Shown here: positions 45,844-56,571 of the stretch, in pieces
Layout: each line of letters opens with the position of its first letter
Position numbering within the stretch: position 1 is the first letter of the stretch
Source: Chloroflexota bacterium
GTDB taxonomy: Bacteria > Chloroflexota > Dehalococcoidia > Lucifugimonadales > UBA3495
Direction: 5' to 3'
DNA: 64,000 nt
NCBI GenBank assembly: GCA_027623675.1
Contig: JAQBVF010000004.1
Coordinates: 1 to 64,000, forward strand
Made by a program: the position numbers and the translations under genes
Notes under the pieces: generated by a model
The model's database searches: none
Seen by the model: the letters and a program-made list of their open reading frames with translations, nothing else
What the model was told of the DNA's origin: nothing

Positions 45844-48582
45844 CTATGCCTGGTCGCCCGGTATGGTTCTTACCACGTCAGAGCGTGGATCGATGACAGC
45901 TTCGTCTCTATTGGAGATGGCCGCGACCAACTGCTCTAGCTTGCGAATGTCGAAAGGTTTCGACACGACCGGGTTGGCGATGTTGTCGAGAAACGCCCTG
46001 GTTGCAGTACCGACGGTGTCTCCGGTGACGAAAATGATGCGGTCCACGAGTTCGGGGTATGCCGCATTGACCTTCTCGTATAACCCCTGCCCGCCCATGC
46101 CGGGCATCCTTAGGTCCAGCAGGATGCAGTCGTATCTCAGGCACTCAAGTTTGCGCCAAGCTTCTTCACCGTCGCCTGCCTGGTCCACGTTGTACCGCCG
46201 CAGCTCAAGCTGTTTCGCCAGGACCGAGCGTAGGTCTGGTTCGTCGTCCACCACCAAGATATGCCTGGCGGGCTTGGATCCGGCGCCGAAATCTGGTGAG
46301 TTAGAGCTGTCGTCCAAGGCGGGAGCCTCCAAGTTGGCGGTCACCGGCAATCGGATGTAGAAAGTGGCGCCTTCATCAACCTTGCTTGCCGCCCAGATCG
46401 CCGCTTCGTGTTGGGCTAGGATTCCGAGACAAACGCTCAGTCCCAGCCCCGCGCCGGACCCAACCTCTTTGGTGGTGTAGAAGGGCTCGAATACCCTGCT
46501 GAGAATGTCTGAAGGGATCCCAGGTCCGTCGTCTTTGATGCTGATGGTCACGCTGTTTTCCCCAGCGGTGGCCGAGACAGTTATCTGGCCCCTGCCGTGG
46601 GCCGATGAACATGCCTGTTCGGCGTTGGACAGGATGTTTAACAAGACCTGAATCATCAAGTGCTCGTCCATCATGATCAGAGGCAGGTCGCTCGGGACGT
46701 CCTCTACGAGGGTGATATTGTTGATGCGGAACTCGTGAGACTTCATCTCAACGGCTCGGCTTATCAGGCCCGAGATGCCCAATGGCCGCCGGTCCGGAGT
46801 GGATTTTTTGGCAAATTGCAGAAGGTTTCTCACGATATTGGCAGCCCGGTAGGCTTGGGCTGAAACCACCTGAAGGTCGCTGCGGATGCCATCGGGCAGG
46901 TCTTCGTCGAGAATCATCTGGGAATAGAGAACGATCGAGGTCAACGGGTTGTTGATCTCATGGGCGACGCCGGCGGAGAGTTCACCGATCGACGCCATGT
47001 GCTTGGCTTCAGCCAGTCTGCGGTCGGTTTCTTTGCGCTCCGTGATGTCTTCGACAAACCCTCCGATGCGGTAGACGTCGCCGGATTCTTCTTTGACGGG
47101 GAACCCGCGGCTAGAGATCCAGAGCTGCCGCCCGTCGGCGCGCATGATGCGGAATTCCTCGTACAGCTCTCCGGTGATAAGTGCCGTTGCAGCAGCCTTG
47201 TTGACGCGCTCGCGGTCTTCCGGATGCACCAGGTCCAGCCAGGAAAAAGATTTTTCATAAAGTATGCCGGCGGGGATACCCCATATCCGCTCGACGCTGG
47301 GACTGACGTAGACCACCTTGTGCGGCCTCAAGTCGGATAGCCAGAAGCCGCCGTGGACGTTGTCGGCGATCTGACGGAAACGGGCCTCGTTCTCTTGGGC
47401 TTCGACGATCGCCCTCTTCCTCTTTTCGTTAAGGTCGTGATTGACCATTGCGCCGCCCAGCAGGGGGCCGACACGCTCGGCCAAACTCAGGTCAGCTCCC
47501 GCGAATGGATCACCCGACCTGGCCAGGATGAGGACTCCAACCACAGCTTCACCCAACTTGAGAGGCATAACCAGGATCGAGTCATGTCCTGCGTCCCAGA
47601 ACGTTTGCGTTTGCAGAAAACCTTCTGGCGTGCCACCCGGACTGTCGCGGTTGATCACCGCGCTTTCCGCCGACCGGGCGGTATCGAGCGCCACACCGCC
47701 CAAAGCTGCTCGGACGGCGGCTCCGTGATCTGGAGCGGTGTTTTCTCCAAGCACGAATGGCGTGCTGACGGTCTGCTGCTCCACGTCGACCGAATCGATC
47801 GAGATGTGCTGGTACGTGATTAACTTGCCCAACTCGGTGGCGAAATTGGAGAATTTATCCTCGATTCCCTGGGGAGAGCTAACGATGCGGCCGATGTTCG
47901 CCTCTACTTCCCTCTCTTGGATCTCCCTGTTGCGGTGTAGGTCCAACTCGTGATTCGCGAACGCACCGCTACGCAGATCGCTGCCCCGTTCTTCCTGCAG
48001 GCCGACATTCTCTATCAGCGCCCCAAGCATGCCGGTGACGGCGGTTACGAGTTGGACGGTATCCGGATGGAAATGGTCGACTTCGGTTGAGGAGAACGCC
48101 AGCATTCCCACCAGGTTTTCATCGGCCTGGACCGGGCAGATGAGGAAGGAACGGTAAAGAGGCGAATAATACTGCGGCATGGGCTCTTTGAGCTTGGCGG
48201 TATCGCTGATCACCAATGTGGTGCGCTCCCTGAAGGCGCGCGCTATCGGGCAGCAGCGGTGGTTGGATAGAGGCAGGTCAAAATCTCTATCCTTCATGGT
48301 GGACTTCTCGGTGGGAGAGTAGGCCGCAACCAAACGGAGTCCGCTGCCGGAATCGTTCAGGGTCCTTAGACTGGCCACGGCAGAGTTGGCGGTACGGGCT
48401 AACACCGCCAGCATCATTTCAGATTTTAGGCTGTGGTCCATCGGCCTAGTCAGAATCGCGGCGATCTCCGCCAAGGCGTCGAGCTCTCGCCGCCATTGCC
48501 GGCCAGTCTCCGATAGAGTGACTTCGGTGGGCTGCCGGCCGCGCCTATTTAAAGAACCTAGAATATCGCGGATAATCGTCAA
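45844..48582 (-). CDS. Hybrid sensor histidine kinase (GAF-GAF-PAS-HisKA-HATPase-REC)
   Basis: VHPEDRE, EDITERK, GVAHEINNPL, NILSNA, DDGPGI, GLGLS, ILVVDDE, LDLRMPG; start codon uncertain. Confidence 0.92.
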   Translation of the reverse strand: MTIIRDILGSLNRRGRQPTEVTLSETGRQWRRELDALAEIAAILTRPMDHSLKSEMMLAVLARTANSAVASLRTLNDSGSGLRLVAAYSPTEKSTMKDRDFDLPLSNHRCCPIARAFRERTTLVISDTAKLKEPMPQYYSPLYRSFLICPVQADENLVGMLAFSSTEVDHFHPDTVQLVTAVTGMLGALIENVGLQEERGSDLRSGAFANHELDLHRNREIQEREVEANIGRIVSSPQGIEDKFSNFATELGKLITYQHISIDSVDVEQQTVSTPFVLGENTAPDHGAAVRAALGGVALDTARSAESAVINRDSPGGTPEGFLQTQTFWDAGHDSILVMPLKLGEAVVGVLILARSGDPFAGADLSLAERVGPLLGGAMVNHDLNEKRKRAIVEAQENEARFRQIADNVHGGFWLSDLRPHKVVYVSPSVERIWGIPAGILYEKSFSWLDLVHPEDRERVNKAAATALITGELYEEFRIMRADGRQLWISSRGFPVKEESGDVYRIGGFVEDITERKETDRRLAEAKHMASIGELSAGVAHEINNPLTSIVLYSQMILDEDLPDGIRSDLQVVSAQAYRAANIVRNLLQFAKKSTPDRRPLGISGLISRAVEMKSHEFRINNITLVEDVPSDLPLIMMDEHLMIQVLLNILSNAEQACSSAHGRGQITVSATAGENSVTISIKDDGPGIPSDILSRVFEPFYTTKEVGSGAGLGLSVCLGILAQHEAAIWAASKVDEGATFYIRLPVTANLEAPALDDSSNSPDFGAGSKPARHILVVDDEPDLRSVLAKQLELRRYNVDQAGDGEEAWRKLECLRYDCILLDLRMPGMGGQGLYEKVNAAYPELVDRIIFVTGDTVGTATRAFLDNIANPVVSKPFDIRKLEQLVAAISNRDEAVIDPRSDVVRTIPGDQA

Positions 48583-48767: not shown

Positions 48768-50123
48768 TCATATTGATTTCGGCGCCTTGGCCCAGCCGTC
48801 GCCCCAGGGAACATCGGCAAGGTTCCTGGAGCGGCGCACTTCGTTGATGGTGAGGACGCCCCGGTCCAAAAGCTGCGCCTCACGCGAAACCCGGACGGAC
48901 TCGTCTTCGCTCAAACCCTCGATTGCGGAGAGGTCGAATTCAAGCTCCAGACCGGGGTACCCCAGGGCCGGAAAAAGGTTGCGTGTGACCTGGTCAGCGA
49001 TGAAGCGCATCTCAGGGACCATGGTATTGCGCCAGAAGAAACGCTCGGCGGCGTTCACGTTGGAGAATGTGGCCCGTTCCAGGTCCGACAGGAGCGGCTT
49101 GGGGACACCGTAGGTCCGGCTGACCTCCTCCAGGCTCCAACGCAGGCCCTGGATGAAGTCCATCTCGCGGTGGCTGATGCCCAGGGTTTTGATGTCCCGG
49201 ACAAAGCTGGCCACGGCGGGCCGGTGCGCTTGCGAGGGGCCGCGAAACCGGGCTTCCCAACGCCGGTAGAACTCCTCCATCTCGTTGTCGGTCATAGTCT
49301 CGTTGGTCAGCAAGACAAAGTCGGGTTGGGCGGAGTTGCGTAGGAAATTACGGTTGAATCGTAGGCTGTCCTTCCCCATGTCGGCCGACATGCGCAGCGG
49401 GGCGATGGGCGACAGGCCGGCGTAGTCTTCCAGCGGGTTGAAGTACCGGAACCAGACCATCTCGTCGGGCGTGTAGGCCACGCGCCCGTCCCGCCCGTTG
49501 TAGACGAATCCTCGGATGTGCTGGCCGCGGTCCGGTACGATGCTAACCCGGTCGGGCCGCAGGGGCCACAACTCTGGTTGCCCCTTCTCGTTGCGCTCGA
49601 TCGACCAGAAGGCAGACCCCCATAGGTTCAGGTAGATCTCCGTGGCCCGCCAGAGGTCGCTGCCGTTATACCAGCGGTTGGCGTGTTCCAAGATTCGTTG
49701 GGCCGGGTGGCCGCGTTCCACGGGCACCCGGCTCCCGGATTCAGTGGTGCGGTATACGACCGCCGGAGCGCGGCTCAGGGCGTCGGACCGCAACCGGATG
49801 GCTGCGTATACCGGCACCGAGGTGGCGTAATATTCGCCGTACTCGGTGCGTGCCCAACCGCCGTTGCTTCCGGCGAACCCTGGGAACCCGTCGACGTCCA
49901 CGGTTGACGCGCGGTTGGCCCGTTGGACGGTGTCCAAGTCTCGGGCTGAGTGTCTTGAAAACCCAGGCAGAAAACCTGGCGCCAGATCCAAAGCCTGTGC
50001 TATCAATCTGGATGCGGCCTGTTTAATCAGACCGTAGACTTGTCCCGTCGTCTGCCGCACGGCTGATTGCTCCGTCCTGGCCGTCTGGTTCGACGGCAGC
50101 GTGGATCTTTGCCTTTCTGTCAT
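48768..50123 (-). CDS. Phage portal protein, HK97 family
   Basis: VYAAIRLRSDALSRAP, LNLWGSAFW, LWPLRPDRV, GLSPI, MDF..VSRTYGVP..ATFSNV, GVLTINEVR; ATG overlaps the terminase stop (ATGA). Confidence 0.92.
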   Translation of the reverse strand: MTERQRSTLPSNQTARTEQSAVRQTTGQVYGLIKQAASRLIAQALDLAPGFLPGFSRHSARDLDTVQRANRASTVDVDGFPGFAGSNGGWARTEYGEYYATSVPVYAAIRLRSDALSRAPAVVYRTTESGSRVPVERGHPAQRILEHANRWYNGSDLWRATEIYLNLWGSAFWSIERNEKGQPELWPLRPDRVSIVPDRGQHIRGFVYNGRDGRVAYTPDEMVWFRYFNPLEDYAGLSPIAPLRMSADMGKDSLRFNRNFLRNSAQPDFVLLTNETMTDNEMEEFYRRWEARFRGPSQAHRPAVASFVRDIKTLGISHREMDFIQGLRWSLEEVSRTYGVPKPLLSDLERATFSNVNAAERFFWRNTMVPEMRFIADQVTRNLFPALGYPGLELEFDLSAIEGLSEDESVRVSREAQLLDRGVLTINEVRRSRNLADVPWGDGWAKAPKSI

Positions 50124-51469
50124 ACCCACAACCTCGTTTTGTTGGCTGATTCCAAGAAGGCCAGCATCAGAGCGTCGGCTTTATCTGGGGATGGGAGTCC
50201 CCGTTGGCGCATGCCTTCTTTGCTTTCCATCTGGATCCGGCCTTGGCTGTCGTAGCTGTAGCGCAGGGCGGCCAATTCGCCCATCAACTGGTGGTCGTTG
50301 GGAATGGCGATCTCGCAGGCCGCGAATAGTTCCCTGAGCCGCCAGTAGCCTTCGGCGCGCAGGTTGGCGAATAGACCATCCTGGCCGGCACGGCGGGCCA
50401 CGTTGATGCCTTTTACCGGGTGACCCTGTTCCTTGAGGCGGTCGACCACGCCTGCTCCCACTCCGATCTCGTCGATACACACCCTTTCGGGAGAGGTGTC
50501 CCGGATGGCCGCGGCCACCCACCCGGCCAATCGCATGGTGTCCATGTTCCGGAAGGTCTGAATCTCCATCACCCGCCCGCCCTGCCTGCGGAGGATGACG
50601 CTGCGGTCGGAGCCGAACCGGGCCACGTCCACCGCCAGGATGACGTCTTCGCCGCTTTCATTGGCGCCGCTGGGTACAACAGCGGTCCAGCGGCACGCGG
50701 CCTCTTCCACGTCGGTCAGGCCGATCAAGGTGTCTTCGGCCTGGTCTGGGAATTCGCCCAGCACCCTGGCCCGATATATGGGGTTGTCCTCGCCCCAGGT
50801 CTCCCGGCGTTCCTCCACCCACCGGGCTGAGGTGAGCCCCGGCACCACCGATCTCCCTGCCTTGACGTTTGGGCTGTCCAAGGCGGAGATGGTGATGTTG
50901 TGGTAGAGGTGCCGTTCCTGGTAGAAGGCCCGGCGAAAGGCGCCGGTCACCGTGGTGGGATTGCCGATCAGCAGCAACAACGGATCGGCGGAGGTCATCA
51001 CGGCTTCGATGGCCTCGTAGATCTCGTCGCTAACGCCTTCCGCCTCGTCGACGACTATCAGCATGTTGGGGCTGTGAAACCCCTGGAACTGGTCGGCGTT
51101 CTCCGCGGACAGGCCCATGGCGTAGCGGTCGTCGGCGATCTCCCAGCGGGTGTCCAGCATCTTGCCGCCCAACAGCTCGGCGTGGGGCCGGAAAAGACGG
51201 TGGACCTGCCGCCAGAGGATGTGCCGCACCTGGCGGAATGTAGGGGCGGTGCTAAGGGCGATGGCGGCGTCTCGGTGCGTGTGCAAGAACCACAACAGGG
51301 TTACGGCGGCGCAGAAACCCTTGCCCAGGCCATTGCCCGATTTGACCGCAACCCGGCGGTGCCGCACCAATGAGTCGAGGACCTCTCGTTGTTTGTCCCA
51401 AAGATTGACGCCCAGTATGTCGGTGGCGAACTCAACTGGAGTCGGGGCGGTGCCCGAAGGTCCCGGCAT
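50120..51469 (-). CDS. terL: Phage terminase large subunit
   Basis: Q-motif LWDKQ, Walker A-like VKSGNGLGKG, Walker B IVVDEAE, motif III IGNP, RVLGEFP, nuclease LAVDVARFGSD / IDEIGVGAGV / SPDKADAL; probable start MPGPS, 5 nt after the upstream stop. Confidence 0.92.
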   Translation of the reverse strand: MPGPSGTAPTPVEFATDILGVNLWDKQREVLDSLVRHRRVAVKSGNGLGKGFCAAVTLLWFLHTHRDAAIALSTAPTFRQVRHILWRQVHRLFRPHAELLGGKMLDTRWEIADDRYAMGLSAENADQFQGFHSPNMLIVVDEAEGVSDEIYEAIEAVMTSADPLLLLIGNPTTVTGAFRRAFYQERHLYHNITISALDSPNVKAGRSVVPGLTSARWVEERRETWGEDNPIYRARVLGEFPDQAEDTLIGLTDVEEAACRWTAVVPSGANESGEDVILAVDVARFGSDRSVILRRQGGRVMEIQTFRNMDTMRLAGWVAAAIRDTSPERVCIDEIGVGAGVVDRLKEQGHPVKGINVARRAGQDGLFANLRAEGYWRLRELFAACEIAIPNDHQLMGELAALRYSYDSQGRIQMESKEGMRQRGLPSPDKADALMLAFLESANKTRLWV

Positions 51470-51474
51470 CCGGC

Positions 51475-51684
51475 CTAACTTTGGGCCGGATAGCCCGACT
51501 CTAATGCAGTGGTTCGCGGGCCGTGCTCTTGTTCGTGGGCGGCCTGGGAGGCGGGGCTGGCCGGCGGACTGGTTGGTGGGCTGAATAGGTAACCGCATTC
51601 CTGGCAGCGGAATACGTCGTTATCTTCTTGGGCTCGTTTTTCCAGGGGGATCAGTCGGGGAGACTGGCAACGTCGGCAATGCAA
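51475..51684 (-). CDS. Small zinc-ribbon protein
   Basis: TTG start after AGGAGGT SD; CRRC-x20-CQECG. Confidence 0.72.
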   Translation of the reverse strand: MHCRRCQSPRLIPLEKRAQEDNDVFRCQECGYLFSPPTSPPASPASQAAHEQEHGPRTTALESGYPAQS

Positions 51685-51722: not shown

Positions 51723-51759
51723 AAAAAAAAGAACGGACCCTTCTTAGAGGGTCCGTCCC
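51723..51759 (-). terminator. Intrinsic terminator in the leader of the Zn-ribbon/terL/portal operon
   Basis: Minus strand GGGACGGACCCT-ctaaga-AGGGTCCGTTC followed by T8. Confidence 0.88.
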
Positions 51760-51769
51760 TGTTGGTAAC

Positions 51770-51799
51770 ACGCTAGGGTTCTGCAATCCAGGGTGTCAA
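51770..51799 (-). promoter_or_regulatory. Putative sigma70-type promoter just upstream of the terminator
   Basis: TTGACA-N18-TAGCGT; the same 18-nt spacing is seen at the tRNA and queF promoters in this window. Confidence 0.55.
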
Positions 51800-51870: not shown

Positions 51871-52056
51871 TTACGCGGGGTTGTGCTTGTTCAGGACCTC
51901 AGCGACACGAGGGTCGATGCTGCCCAGTTCGACTCCGCCGTCCGCCCTGGCAATGCCGAGGTGGGCGTCGCGCTGAATCTCTTCCCAGTCGGGCTCCAGT
52001 TCGTAGTTGTCCCGAAGCTCGTCAAACATGGCATCAAGGGATTTTTTGTCAAACAT
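51871..52056 (-). CDS. Small acidic hypothetical protein (61 aa)
   Basis: GGAGGA SD; MFDKKSLDAMFDELRDNYELEPDWEEIQRDAHLG. Confidence 0.65.
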   Translation of the reverse strand: MFDKKSLDAMFDELRDNYELEPDWEEIQRDAHLGIARADGGVELGSIDPRVAEVLNKHNPA

Positions 52057-55074: not shown

Positions 55075-56571
55075 CTAAGCCCCCCGCAGCGCCTTGGCGT
55101 CCTGTCCGGCGCTCGTGCCCGACAGCTTGCCGAAGACCATGCCGGCCGACAGTCCGGAGCCGCCGGGGTAATTGTGATAGAACAGGCCGCCGACCATCTC
55201 ACCGGCGGCGTAGAGGCCGGGGATGGGCTCCTGGCTGTTGGTAACGACGCGGCCACGGTTGTCGATCTTGACGCCGCCGAACGTAAAGCTGATGCCGCAA
55301 GTTACGGCGTAGCCGGTGTAGGGCGGGGTGTCGATGAGCTCGGCCCAATTGCTCTTCGGCGGGGTGATGCCCACCGTGTTCCGGCCGTCTTTGATGGTCG
55401 GGTTATAGGGGATATCCGTTTGCACCGCTGCGTTGTACTCCTCGATGGTCTTCACGAATCCGGCTGGGTCGATGTCCAGCCGCTCGGCCAGTTCCTCCAG
55501 GGTATCGGCCCTGGCCATGGTCACCTGGTCGATGTGGTATTCGTCGCGCAGCAGGTGCTTAACCTTGTCGTCAAAGATGTGGAAGCCCAGGCCTTGGGGC
55601 TGGGTAAGGTAGGCCCGGCCAAATTTTACGTAGGTGTAGTTGCGGAAGTCCTCGCCCTCGTCCAGGAAGCGCTCGCCGTTGATGTTCACGATCAGGCCGA
55701 AGGGGTAGGAATGCTTCTGGTAAAGCTCGGTGATGGTGCGGTCGCCGAACGCCGGGGCGTTCATGTCCCAGGCCACGGCGTGGCAGCTACTGTAATGGCC
55801 GTGGGACTGGGCGCCAATGTCCAGCGCCATCTTTATTCCGTCGCCGGTGTTGTAGGGGATACCCCGGACCTTCACGTTCTCCCAGCCGGGGCCAAGGTAA
55901 CGGCAGCGCATCTCCGCGTTGGCCTCGAAGCCGCCGGCAGCCAGTACCACCGCGCCCGCGGAGATATCCTCAAATCCGTCCGGCCCCAGGACCGTCAACC
56001 CGCTGACCCGGCCCTTTTGGTCCTGAATCAATTTCTTGGCTTCGGTGGAGTAGCGCACGTCGATGCCCATCTCGGCGCAGACGTCGAACTGTTGGTCGGA
56101 CAGGCCCTTGCCGGCTCCGACAGCCTCGACCAGGAGACCGCCCCAGAATCGGTACTTGTCGCCGTCTTTGAATGCCTGCCGTCCGTAGGCCAGGACGAAC
56201 CGGACTCCCTTGGACTGCAGCCACTGCATGGTTGGCAGCGACTGGCTGACCAGTATCTGGGCCAGCTCGGGGTCGGTGAGCCCCTGGGTTACGCGCATCA
56301 TGTCGTCGTAGAACTGGTTCTCGGTGTAGCTGCCAACTTCGATCTGGTTGACCTCGGTCTCCGACATGTCGGGAATGACCGTTCGGATGTCGTCCAGACC
56401 CTCAAAGGCGAAGCGGATGATCCCGCCGGTGAAGTAGGTGTTGCCGCCCCGGAAATATTCTGGAGCTTTCTCCACGACCAGGACCCGGTCGGTGTTCTCC
56501 TTAGCGGCGATGGCCGCGGACAGGGCCGCGTTTCCGGCGCCGACTACAATCACGTCATAATGTTCTGCCAC
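55075..56571 (-). CDS. FAD-dependent tricarballylate dehydrogenase TcuA-like oxidoreductase
   Basis: VVGAGNAA, GGNTYFT, GGFEANAEMR, NTGDG, HSYPFG, SFTFGG, AGEMVGGLFYHNYPGGSGL. Confidence 0.85.
   Translation of the reverse strand: MAEHYDVIVVGAGNAALSAAIAAKENTDRVLVVEKAPEYFRGGNTYFTGGIIRFAFEGLDDIRTVIPDMSETEVNQIEVGSYTENQFYDDMMRVTQGLTDPELAQILVSQSLPTMQWLQSKGVRFVLAYGRQAFKDGDKYRFWGGLLVEAVGAGKGLSDQQFDVCAEMGIDVRYSTEAKKLIQDQKGRVSGLTVLGPDGFEDISAGAVVLAAGGFEANAEMRCRYLGPGWENVKVRGIPYNTGDGIKMALDIGAQSHGHYSSCHAVAWDMNAPAFGDRTITELYQKHSYPFGLIVNINGERFLDEGEDFRNYTYVKFGRAYLTQPQGLGFHIFDDKVKHLLRDEYHIDQVTMARADTLEELAERLDIDPAGFVKTIEEYNAAVQTDIPYNPTIKDGRNTVGITPPKSNWAELIDTPPYTGYAVTCGISFTFGGVKIDNRGRVVTNSQEPIPGLYAAGEMVGGLFYHNYPGGSGLSAGMVFGKLSGTSAGQDAKALRGA

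What the first reader, a model, noticed from the sequence alone, without database searches (positions are those of the whole stretch)
48768..51684. Headless phage packaging motor: Zn-ribbon + terminase large subunit + portal operon among host genes
Seen: three intact, closely coupled minus-strand ORFs. The Zn-ribbon stop is 5 nt before the probable TerL start, and the TerL stop overlaps the portal start (ATGA). TerL keeps its Q-motif, Walker B, motif III and nuclease aspartates, and the portal is full length. There are no frameshifts and base composition looks host-like. The neighbours are a histidine kinase and MFS/metabolic genes. No prohead protease, capsid, tail, recognisable small terminase, integrase or lysis gene was found in the 64 kb. 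Established: in HK97-like phages and RcGTA, terL-portal is followed by protease and capsid genes, and decaying prophages usually leave pseudogene debris. Inference: this is a domesticated module. It could be one locus of a split gene transfer agent, a capsid-hijacking or phage-interfering module, or a motor repurposed for capsid-independent DNA translocation.
Basis: partly seen in the sequence, partly recalled or inferred. Interest (0 to 1): 0.88.

Follow-up and report, generated by a model that had tools for sequence, protein, structure and literature searches.

The report
Orphaned packaging locus of inherited phage-particle genes
These three intact phage DNA-packaging genes are one piece of an old phage-derived particle gene set that this bacterial family inherits in scattered pieces like a gene transfer agent, but here the matching capsid gene, just outside the window, is broken.

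Summary
A Zn-ribbon ORF, a large terminase (TerL) and a portal form an intact, tightly coupled minus-strand operon among housekeeping genes. "Headless" is true only of the window. A prohead protease and an HK97-type capsid gene lie 18-20 kb away on the same contig.

The locus is syntenic across the genus and in other genera of the family. TerL was found in 47 of 61 family genomes (25 of 27 genera) and the capsid in 41 of 61. dN/dS is 0.05-0.18, like the flanking host genes, and dS is also like theirs. The TerL tree nests genus inside family inside order. The nearest viral TerLs are only 34-41% identical.

Both loci are preceded by the same unusual terminator hairpin, found nowhere else in the genome, so expression probably needs antitermination.

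In this genome the set is eroded. The capsid lacks its last ~100 residues, six downstream genes including the head-tail adaptor are gone, and no tail genes were found in the genus.

My reading is an orphaned packaging locus of a family-wide, undescribed GTA-like system. This scan has noted the system before on other DNA (e1-7688935, e1-7122421).

The parts
51770..51799 (-). Promoter-like element: TTGACA (51799-51794), an 18-nt spacer, then TAGCGT (51775-51770)
   Evidence: Read. It is nearly invariant across genus orthologs. The consensus scan did not call it, because the -10 matches only 3 of 6 positions, so promoter function is inferred.
51723..51760 (-). Leader terminator hairpin GGGACGGACCCT-loop-AGGGTCCGTTC followed by T8, ending 47 nt before the Zn-ribbon start
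   Evidence: Terminator scan: 13 pairs. Fold energy is -23.7 kcal/mol, z = -4.1. A sister hairpin lies before the protease gene at C10:69925-69958. These are the only two such sites in the 3.07 Mb genome. The hairpin is conserved with a compensatory pair across 17 leaders.
51475..51684 (-). Zn-ribbon ORF of 69 aa with a TTG start behind AGGAGG; role unknown, sits in the small-terminase position
   Evidence: C3, C6, C27 and C30 are invariant in 14 orthologs. A homolog lies immediately upstream of TerL in all 12 other TerL loci where I aligned one, out to order level, and G002 carries a disrupted copy. No Pfam or PHROG family matched. dN/dS is 0.12-0.18.
50120..51469 (-). Large terminase (TerL), ATPase plus RNase-H-like nuclease, 449 aa
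   Evidence: phrog_2 at E=7e-40. Catalytic motifs are invariant. Nuclease motifs align to Sf6 gp2. dN/dS is 0.09-0.15 within the genus.
48768..50129 (-). Portal protein of 451-453 aa (start ATG 50125 or GTG 50129)
   Evidence: PF04860 at E=6.6e-70, full profile length. phrog_2662 at E=1.5e-72. It is the only portal match in the genome. dN/dS is 0.07-0.13.

Best explanation
The operon is the DNA-packaging locus of an old siphovirus-derived particle gene set. It encodes a Zn-ribbon protein in the small-terminase position, the TerL motor-nuclease and the portal. This bacterial family inherits the set vertically and keeps it split over two to three chromosomal loci.

The loci are: (1) packaging; (2) protease, capsid, head accessory genes and the head-tail adaptor; (3) a 90-aa virion-associated gene. 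Some genera also carry a tail terminator, a tube protein and a 707-aa tail protein.

Shown: homology, synteny, single copy, purifying selection, a gene tree that follows taxonomy, and a shared module-specific terminator hairpin ahead of both main loci.

Inferred: transcription starting upstream stops at this hairpin unless an unidentified antiterminator lets it through. The loci would then be silent by default and switched on together. In relatives with complete sets the products would build DNA-filled particles in the manner of a gene transfer agent.

In this genome the partner locus has been crippled. The capsid is cut at about residue 345 of 445, six downstream genes are deleted, and no tail genes are detectable. 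The intact motor therefore most likely cannot build or fill its own heads here. It is a recently orphaned relic, or it is retained for a still unknown residual role.
For: Partner locus. PF05065 gives one match in the genome, at C10:71343-71714. Pfam and PHROGs identify a protease at C10:70011-70838 and a capsid at C10:70959-72014, between host genes for GGT, Fe-S assembly, enoyl-CoA hydratase and FtsJ.

Synteny. The flanking genes (S9 peptidase, MFS transporter, the 61-aa p61 gene) recur around TerL-portal in G002, G003, G005, G008 and G016, and in part in G022 and G024.

Distribution.
- TerL: 22 of 41 relatives, including 13 of 19 in the genus; 47 of 61 family genomes, 25 of 27 genera.
- Capsid: 41 of 61 family genomes, 23 of 27 genera, nearly all full length.
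- Portal: 16 of 41 relatives.

Selection (NG86 dN/dS). TerL 0.09-0.15, portal 0.07-0.13, Zn-ribbon 0.12-0.18, capsid 0.05-0.06, protease 0.09-0.17. Host flanks give 0.03-0.20 with similar dS (0.6-2.1).

Tree. The genus is monophyletic (100/99) and nests within family and then order rows (99/98 for an 11-row clade). The 12 viral rows lie outside.

Viral relatives. The best phage-database hits are 37-40% identical, and all 590 matching records are below 60%. IMG/VR gave 11 loci at 34-41%.

Shared hairpin. It occurs at only 2 sites in the genome. A strict pattern found one palindromic site before the protease gene in each of 5 genomes, plus one extra site, with 0 control hits. It folds and covaries. 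At the protease locus no co-oriented gene lies upstream, so the hairpin cannot be an ordinary gene-end terminator there.

Erosion in this genome.
- The capsid ends at ...GPQATLAIRQPSKR*, where relatives continue for about 100 aa.
- The G003 genes of 154, 160, 90, 130, 131 and 274 aa (the last is the adaptor, phrog_442) have no homolog here.
- Tail proteins of G025, G024 and G020 gave no tblastn hit.
- A tube-protein profile matched 0 of 20 genus genomes.
- One per-run contig bridges the truncation junction.
Against: TerL, the portal, the Zn-ribbon and the protease are all intact in this genome. The long branch leading to it shows no relaxation (omega 0.13-0.15), though that script produced no host-gene control. 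A residual function therefore cannot be excluded.

Decay is common in the genus. Only 3 of 20 genomes (G003, G015, G016) keep TerL, portal, capsid and adaptor all intact. G009, G010 and G013 have deleted the locus. This weakens any claim of strong current selection.

No particle, packaging or expression data exist. No antiterminator has been identified. The promoter call is weak. At the TerL locus the hairpin could also simply terminate the upstream host gene p61, because G013 keeps a compensated hairpin after losing the module.

dS is near saturation, so the NG86 values are rough. The absence of tail genes rests on sequence searches in genomes that are 62-92% complete.
Confidence: 0.6

Rival explanations
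1. Ordinary decaying prophage remnant. A phage integrated once, or repeatedly at a favoured site, and is eroding. The intact ORFs are chance survivors with no host function.
For: Decay is patchy in the genus: portal frameshifts or loss in G002, G005 and G008, TerL fragments or stops in G001, G006, G012 and G014, and clean deletions in G009, G010 and G013. The capsid is truncated here. G025 carries a contiguous, more phage-like head-tail cluster containing an IS element.
Against: dN/dS is 0.05-0.18 at dS 0.6-2.1, the same as host genes. TerL is present in 25 of 27 genera and the capsid in 23 of 27, mostly as a single copy with frames mostly intact. The tree follows taxonomy. No viral relative exceeds 41% identity. 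No integrase was found in the window. The split architecture of about 20 kb recurs in at least 8 genera.
Confidence: 0.12
2. A working locus of a split gene transfer agent in this very genome. The three genes would act with head and tail genes elsewhere to package host DNA.
For: The packaging genes, the protease and the 90-aa gene at C13:112944-113213 are intact. The leader hairpins are shared. Inheritance is family-wide.
Against: The only HK97 capsid match in the genome is truncated by about 100 of 445 residues, and the missing part is not elsewhere. No adaptor, tail terminator, tube or 707-aa tail protein was found. The genome is 91% complete, so a second copy on unassembled DNA is not excluded.
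Confidence: 0.08
3. The motor, or the head genes in tail-less genera, has been exapted for another job. Candidates are interference with infecting phages, use of a helper phage's capsids or tails in the manner of cf-PICI, or capsid-independent DNA handling.
For: Head and packaging genes stay under purifying selection in a genus where no tube gene was found in 0 of 20 genomes. The family sample has 47 TerL-bearing genomes and 20 with the 707-aa tail protein. By my tally of the two tables, 19 genomes have both, so 28 TerL-bearing genomes lack the tail protein. The adaptor is retained in 12 of 19 genus genomes. TerL and the portal are intact here even though the capsid is broken.
Against: There is no direct evidence. 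No defence-system context was found in the window. Tail genes may be too divergent to detect. A recent capsid truncation explains the intact motor equally well.
Confidence: 0.15

Closest known systems
RcGTA-type gene transfer agents (Rhodogtaviriformidae) of Alphaproteobacteria
   Same: Phage-derived head and tail genes held in the chromosome, scattered over several loci, inherited vertically and lacking replication or integration genes. Passages I read in PMC9662315 say that RcGTA genes lie in five loci totalling about 20 kb.
   Different: A different phylum and an independent origin: TerL is closest to siphophage TerLs at 37-40% identity. A Zn-ribbon gene replaces a recognisable TerS. Shared leader terminator hairpins are present. 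The tail module is absent from many genera. No particle or transfer data exist. Homology to RcGTA genes was not tested.
Capsid-forming PICIs (cf-PICIs)
   Same: They encode terminase, portal, protease, capsid and adaptor-type head genes but no tails. I saw the abstract of 10.1101/2025.02.11.637232; the gene content is partly recalled.
   Different: cf-PICIs are contiguous, mobile, horizontally spread islands (the integrase and replication modules are recalled). This set is split by host genes, syntenic across genera, and follows taxonomy. No integrase was found in the window.
HK97-like siphophage head modules, for example Arthrobacter phage Amigo
   Same: The order small ORF, TerL, portal, protease, capsid. 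The families are PF04860, PF04586 and PF05065.
   Different: TerL identity is only 37%. The Amigo small ORF upstream of TerL is not a Zn-ribbon. Here the module is interrupted by 18 kb of host genes and has no phage backbone.
Lambdoid Q-dependent late-gene antitermination (recalled)
   Same: A promoter-proximal intrinsic terminator stands ahead of the structural genes, so they are read only after antitermination.
   Different: No Q-like gene has been identified. The hairpin stem sequence itself is conserved, and it is duplicated at two separated loci. The mechanism is untested.

Membership tests
Gene transfer agent / viriform | Caudovirus-derived structural genes in the host chromosome without integration or replication modules | tested here: met
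   Portal, TerL, protease and capsid were identified. The 37 of 49 other window ORFs that matched a Pfam family are all cellular, and none is an integrase. Only the window and the 56-76 kb stretch of the contig were scanned.
Gene transfer agent / viriform | Vertical inheritance with the host, under purifying selection | tested here: met
   Synteny; 25 of 27 genera; dN/dS 0.05-0.18 with host-like dS; the tree nests by taxonomy. No species tree was built; ranks were used as a proxy.
Gene transfer agent / viriform | A complete particle gene set (head, connector, tail) in the producing genome | tested here: not met
   The capsid is truncated. The adaptor and five other head genes are absent. No tail genes were found. 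Some other genera (G024, G020) do carry capsid, adaptor, terminator, tube and the 707-aa protein.
Gene transfer agent / viriform | Particles package random host DNA shorter than the coding loci, and production is controlled by the host | not testable with these tools
   No RNA run was listed. No virome data were available. Only the shared leader hairpin hints at joint control.
Rhodogtaviriformidae (RcGTA-like) | Homology of head-tail cluster genes to RcGTA g1-g15 | not tested
   No RcGTA sequence or profile was compared. The nearest named TerLs are from siphophages.
cf-PICI / phage satellite | A contiguous mobile island with integrase and replication genes, spread horizontally | tested here: not met
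   The loci are separated by 18 kb of host genes. No integrase was found in the window. The position is syntenic across genera.
Terminase large subunit | ATPase motifs (Q, Walker A, Walker B, coupling motif) plus three acidic residues of the RNase-H-like nuclease | tested here: met
   All are invariant in the 10-row alignment. The nuclease motifs align to Sf6 gp2 chains 5c10 and 4idh. phrog_2 matches at E=7e-40. No Pfam terminase model matched.
Phage portal (PF04860) | A full-length match above the curated cut-off | tested here: met
   236 bits against a cut-off of 39.1, over profile positions 3-320 of 321.
Small terminase (for the Zn-ribbon ORF) | Homology to a TerS family, or binding to TerL | tested here: inconclusive
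   No Pfam or PHROG match. Only the position and the conserved linkage to TerL point to this role. Binding was not established.

The most novel reading that the evidence does not exclude
A whole family of uncultured marine or groundwater Chloroflexota (SAR202 according to earlier notes of this scan) maintains an undescribed viriform. It would be a split, antitermination-gated phage head and packaging system with a very conserved capsid (65-91% identity across genera). The tail is optional: many genera, including this one, keep heads, adaptor and motor under purifying selection without any detectable tail. That implies either tail piracy from infecting phages or release of tail-less DNA-filled capsids as a new route of gene exchange. 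The conserved GGGAC-N-GACC leader hairpin would be the recognition site of a dedicated antiterminator.
Probability: 0.22. Interest if true: 0.85.

Novelty: new variant of a known kind. Interest (0 to 1): 0.62.

Why it matters
If the family-wide set is a working particle system, it would be the first GTA-like viriform in Chloroflexota, in an abundant and uncultured aquatic clade. Three full-text searches found no paper that links GTAs or prophage terminases with Chloroflexi or SAR202 in a relevant way. I read passages of one hit, and the viriform classification paper does not mention Chloroflexi.

The shared leader terminator gives a concrete, testable regulatory handle. The mosaic of intact, tail-less and eroded copies offers a natural series for asking which parts of a domesticated virus a host keeps, and why.

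For this genome the practical message is more modest. The motor is real, but its capsid partner is broken.

Tried and rejected
- RNA evidence: no RNA holder was listed for the operon.
- Binding of the Zn-ribbon protein to TerL: the complex prediction gave no verdict.
- ESM Atlas for the Zn-ribbon: the nearest clusters are EcdD/BsdD small Zn-ribbon subunits, score 0.93 but only 139-149 shared features. I treat this as generic and a lead only.
- A shared extended -35 motif (TTGAC-N3-YTGGA) as a regulon signal: rejected, because 17-19 sites occur genome-wide, many inside genes.
- The 61-aa gene at 51871-52056 as a fourth module gene: rejected. It occurs in 24 of 24 family genomes whether or not TerL is present, so it is a host core gene.
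- The histidine kinase downstream of the portal as a module regulator: not supported. Among the loci compared it matched only G016, G003 (two pieces) and G017 (a fragment), all in this genus.
- PHROG scan of six unannotated ORFs at C10 62-67 kb: no hits.
- The Amigo and vir525 ORFs upstream of TerL as Zn-ribbon homologs: no.
- Branch decomposition for relaxed selection on this genome's lineage: no sign of relaxation, but no host-gene control could be computed, because 5 of 10 genes lacked a G015 ortholog in the loci I held.
- Read laying: in run X1 the contigs break at the truncation junction, and only the X2 contig bridges it. Both runs may be the source sample.
Full report
WHAT IS THERE. The window is G000:C10:1-64000, part of a 151-kb contig in a 3.07-Mb, 48-contig genome that is 91% complete. 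Three minus-strand ORFs occupy 48768-51684.
- The first is a 69-aa Zn-ribbon protein with a TTG start behind AGGAGG.
- The second is a 449-aa large terminase starting at ATG 51469, 5 nt after the Zn-ribbon stop.
- The third is a portal of 451-453 aa whose ATG overlaps the TerL stop as ATGA.

The portal matches PF04860 at E=6.6e-70 over the whole profile. TerL matches phrog_2 at E=7e-40. A 10-row ortholog alignment keeps the Q motif, Walker A, Walker B, GNPT and three nuclease acidic motifs invariant, and the nuclease motifs align to Sf6 gp2.

The rest of the window is housekeeping. Of 49 further ORFs, 37 match cellular Pfam families and none is an integrase, capsid or tail gene; 12 match nothing.

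NOT HEADLESS. A whole-genome search with the HK97 capsid family gave one match, at C10:71343-71714. Pfam and PHROGs identify a prohead protease (C10:70011-70838) and a capsid (C10:70959-72014). They sit between host genes for gamma-glutamyltranspeptidase, Fe-S assembly, enoyl-CoA hydratase and FtsJ. The head genes therefore start 6 kb beyond the window end, and about 18 kb of host genes separates them from the packaging operon.

INHERITED, NOT RECENTLY ACQUIRED. The packaging operon lies in the same gene neighbourhood in G002, G003, G005, G008 and G016, with S9 peptidase on one side and the 61-aa p61 gene, a small membrane protein and an MFS transporter on the other. Parts of that neighbourhood recur in other genera (G022, G024).

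Distribution of the genes:
- TerL: 22 of 41 relatives, including 13 of 19 in the genus; 47 of 61 sampled family genomes, 25 of 27 genera.
- Portal: 16 of 41 relatives.
- Capsid: 19 of 41 relatives; 41 of 61 family genomes, 23 of 27 genera, almost always one full-length copy at 65-91% identity.

TerL and capsid lie 16-35 kb apart in at least eight genera and up to more than 1 Mb apart in others. The split is therefore old and stable.

Pairwise NG86 dN/dS values are 0.09-0.15 (TerL), 0.07-0.13 (portal), 0.12-0.18 (Zn-ribbon), 0.05-0.06 (capsid) and 0.09-0.17 (protease). Flanking host genes give 0.03-0.20 with a similar dS of 0.6-2.1. dS is near saturation, so these values are rough.

A TerL tree places the genus as a clade (100/99) inside family rows, and those inside an 11-row chromosomal clade (99/98). 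All 12 viral rows fall outside. G025 and G035 sit on a separate long branch.

The nearest TerLs in 50,697 phage records are 37-40% identical, and all 590 matching records are below 60%. The 11 IMG/VR loci found are 34-41% identical.

THE WIDER SET. In genus relatives with an intact capsid (G003, G016) the head locus runs protease, capsid (445 aa), then genes of 154-181, 160, 90, 130 and 131 aa, then a 274-aa head-tail adaptor (phrog_442), and then host genes.

A 90-aa protein follows the capsid in G022, G025 and G028. In this genus it sits at a third locus (here C13:112944-113213). It is 84-97% identical in genomes that keep the other genes and 62-75% identical or truncated in those that lost them.

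Other genera of the family (G024, G020) continue after the adaptor with a tail terminator (phrog_17840), a major tail protein (phrog_10528) and a 707-aa protein. That 707-aa protein occurs in 20 of 61 family genomes, 10 of 27 genera.

G025, in another family of the order, has one contiguous cluster from TerL to the tail, interrupted by a transposase.

In this genus the tube protein was not found. A single-sequence query matched 0 of 19 genomes while matching G020, G024, G025 and G035. A three-row profile matched 0 of 20.

A SHARED CONTROL ELEMENT. A 13-pair hairpin followed by T8 ends 47 nt upstream of the Zn-ribbon start: GGGACGGACCCT-loop-AGGGTCCGTTC at 51760-51723 (-23.7 kcal/mol, z = -4.1). 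A sister hairpin, GGGGACCGACCC-TTAA-GGGTCGGTCCCC followed by T7 (-32.3 kcal/mol, z = -6.0), ends 62 nt upstream of the protease start.

A pattern that captures both occurs nowhere else in the 3.07-Mb genome. A strict version found the palindromic site before the protease gene in each of 5 genomes, plus one extra site in G016, with no control hits.

My regex recovered the hairpin in 11 of 13 Zn-ribbon leaders and 6 of 6 protease leaders, 33-85 nt before the start codon. G037 has an interrupted version. G028 was missed by the regex but is visible by eye.

In the 17-row alignment the stem is conserved, and one pair switches among G-C (9 rows), A-U (5) and C-G (2).

At the protease locus no co-oriented gene lies upstream, so the hairpin cannot be a gene-end terminator there. 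At the packaging locus only about 30 nt separate it from the ribosome-binding site, so transcription must come through it.

A conserved TTGACA-N18-TAGCGT element lies just upstream, but it fails the consensus scan.

I infer that both loci are gated by terminator read-through. The factor responsible is unknown.

One caution applies. After losing the module, G013 keeps a compensated hairpin behind the host gene p61. At this locus the hairpin may therefore also serve as that gene's terminator.

THIS GENOME'S COPY IS ERODED. The capsid frame ends at ...GPQATLAIRQPSKR*, where relatives continue for about 100 residues, and no other frame carries the rest. In the family search it is the only C-terminally truncated match, covering residues 2-347 of 445.

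The six genes that follow the capsid in G003 have no homolog anywhere in this genome. The tail proteins of G025, G024 and G020 gave no tblastn hit either.

One per-run contig (X2) bridges the truncation junction without differences. In X1 the contigs break there. Both runs may be the source sample.

Erosion is common in the genus.
- Only G003, G015 and G016 (3 of 20 genomes) keep TerL, portal, capsid and adaptor all intact.
- G008 lacks the portal, and G002 has a split portal and a disrupted Zn-ribbon gene.
- G012 and G014 carry broken TerL.
- G009, G010 and G013 have deleted the locus, leaving the leader and a 5' remnant of the Zn-ribbon gene in G009 and G010. G017 keeps only the Zn-ribbon gene.

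A three-taxon decomposition shows no relaxation on the long branch to this genome (omega 0.13-0.15), but without a host-gene control.

HOW IT MOST LIKELY WORKS. Shown: the identities of the genes, their coupling, the inheritance pattern and the cis-element. Inferred: the rest of this paragraph. In members with a full set, read-through of the two hairpins would switch on the packaging and head loci together. Protease and capsid would assemble on the portal. TerL, perhaps with the Zn-ribbon protein in the role of small terminase, would fill the heads with DNA. The adaptor, and a tail where one is present, would complete the particle. This is the logic of a gene transfer agent.

In this genome the truncated capsid and the missing connectors make self-sufficient particle production unlikely. 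The motor is then either a recently orphaned relic or is kept for another role.

COMPARISON WITH WHAT IS KNOWN. The closest concept is the GTA, or viriform. Passages I read in PMC9662315 describe RcGTA genes scattered over five loci, and that paper contains no occurrence of 'Chloroflex'. I saw only the abstracts of PMC11841831 and of the cf-PICI preprint 10.1101/2025.02.11.637232.

Full-text searches for 'gene transfer agent' with Chloroflexi (36 papers, 15 listed), for SAR202 with 'gene transfer agent' (2 papers) and for SAR202 with prophage and terminase (4 papers) showed no description of such a system. I checked the passages of only one of these papers. I did not look at any supplementary files.

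This scan has reported the same system before. It was noted from the capsid side of this genome (e1-7688935), whose claims of truncation, dispersal and a shared signal I re-tested and confirm. It was also noted in another SAR202 genome (e1-7122421). Similar notes exist for other Chloroflexota. These are unchecked AI notes and not independent evidence.

VERDICT. This is a new variant of a known kind, a GTA-like viriform candidate. It is of moderate to high interest as a window onto a family-wide system, although the copy in this genome is incomplete.

Noticed in passing
window 45844-48582 (-): A 912-aa hybrid histidine kinase (GAF-PAS-HisKA-HATPase-REC) starts 185 nt after the portal stop, and no terminator was called between them. 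Matches were found in G016, in G003 as two pieces that skip residues 563-702, and in G017 as a REC-domain fragment.
   Followed up: partly
window 51871-52056 (-): A 61-aa acidic protein (MFDKKSLDAMFDELRD...) of unknown function is present in 24 of 24 family genomes and several other families of the order, at 84-93% identity within the genus. It is a host core gene that marks the TerL site.
   Followed up: partly
L028:5741-6991 (G028:C1, between the head and packaging loci): A CAP12/Pycsar-type TIR effector gene (PF10137, E=6e-28) lies inside the phage-derived cluster of G028. That genome also gave 7 separate TerL matches.
   Followed up: no
L017:11656-14408 (G002:C7): The Zn-ribbon gene of G002 is split by about 2.7 kb of inserted DNA and carries an in-frame stop. 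The portal in the same genome is in two pieces.
   Followed up: no
L025:5034-6599 (G025:C1): A DDE transposase (PF13701) sits between the portal and the protease in the otherwise contiguous head-tail cluster of G025.
   Followed up: no
L043:17272-17547 (G024:C1): A RelE-like toxin gene (phrog_1213) lies at the end of the tail block. It is directly followed by the ortholog of the window's FAD-binding oxidoreductase gene (55075-56571), which hints at an older adjacency of the tail block and the packaging neighbourhood.
   Followed up: no
L003:15790 and 16298 (C10:71789, 72297): In run X2, single contigs diverge from the reference inside the capsid gene and inside the enoyl-CoA hydratase gene. 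These may be co-occurring strain variants.
   Followed up: no
G000:C35:69138-69359 (-): A 73-residue stretch similar to the C-terminal beta-rich domain of the head-tail adaptor (47% identity) lies inside a 289-aa frame. Similar matches to the same part of the adaptor turn up in G003, G002, G022 and G021. It is probably a host protein that shares a domain, not an adaptor remnant.
   Followed up: no
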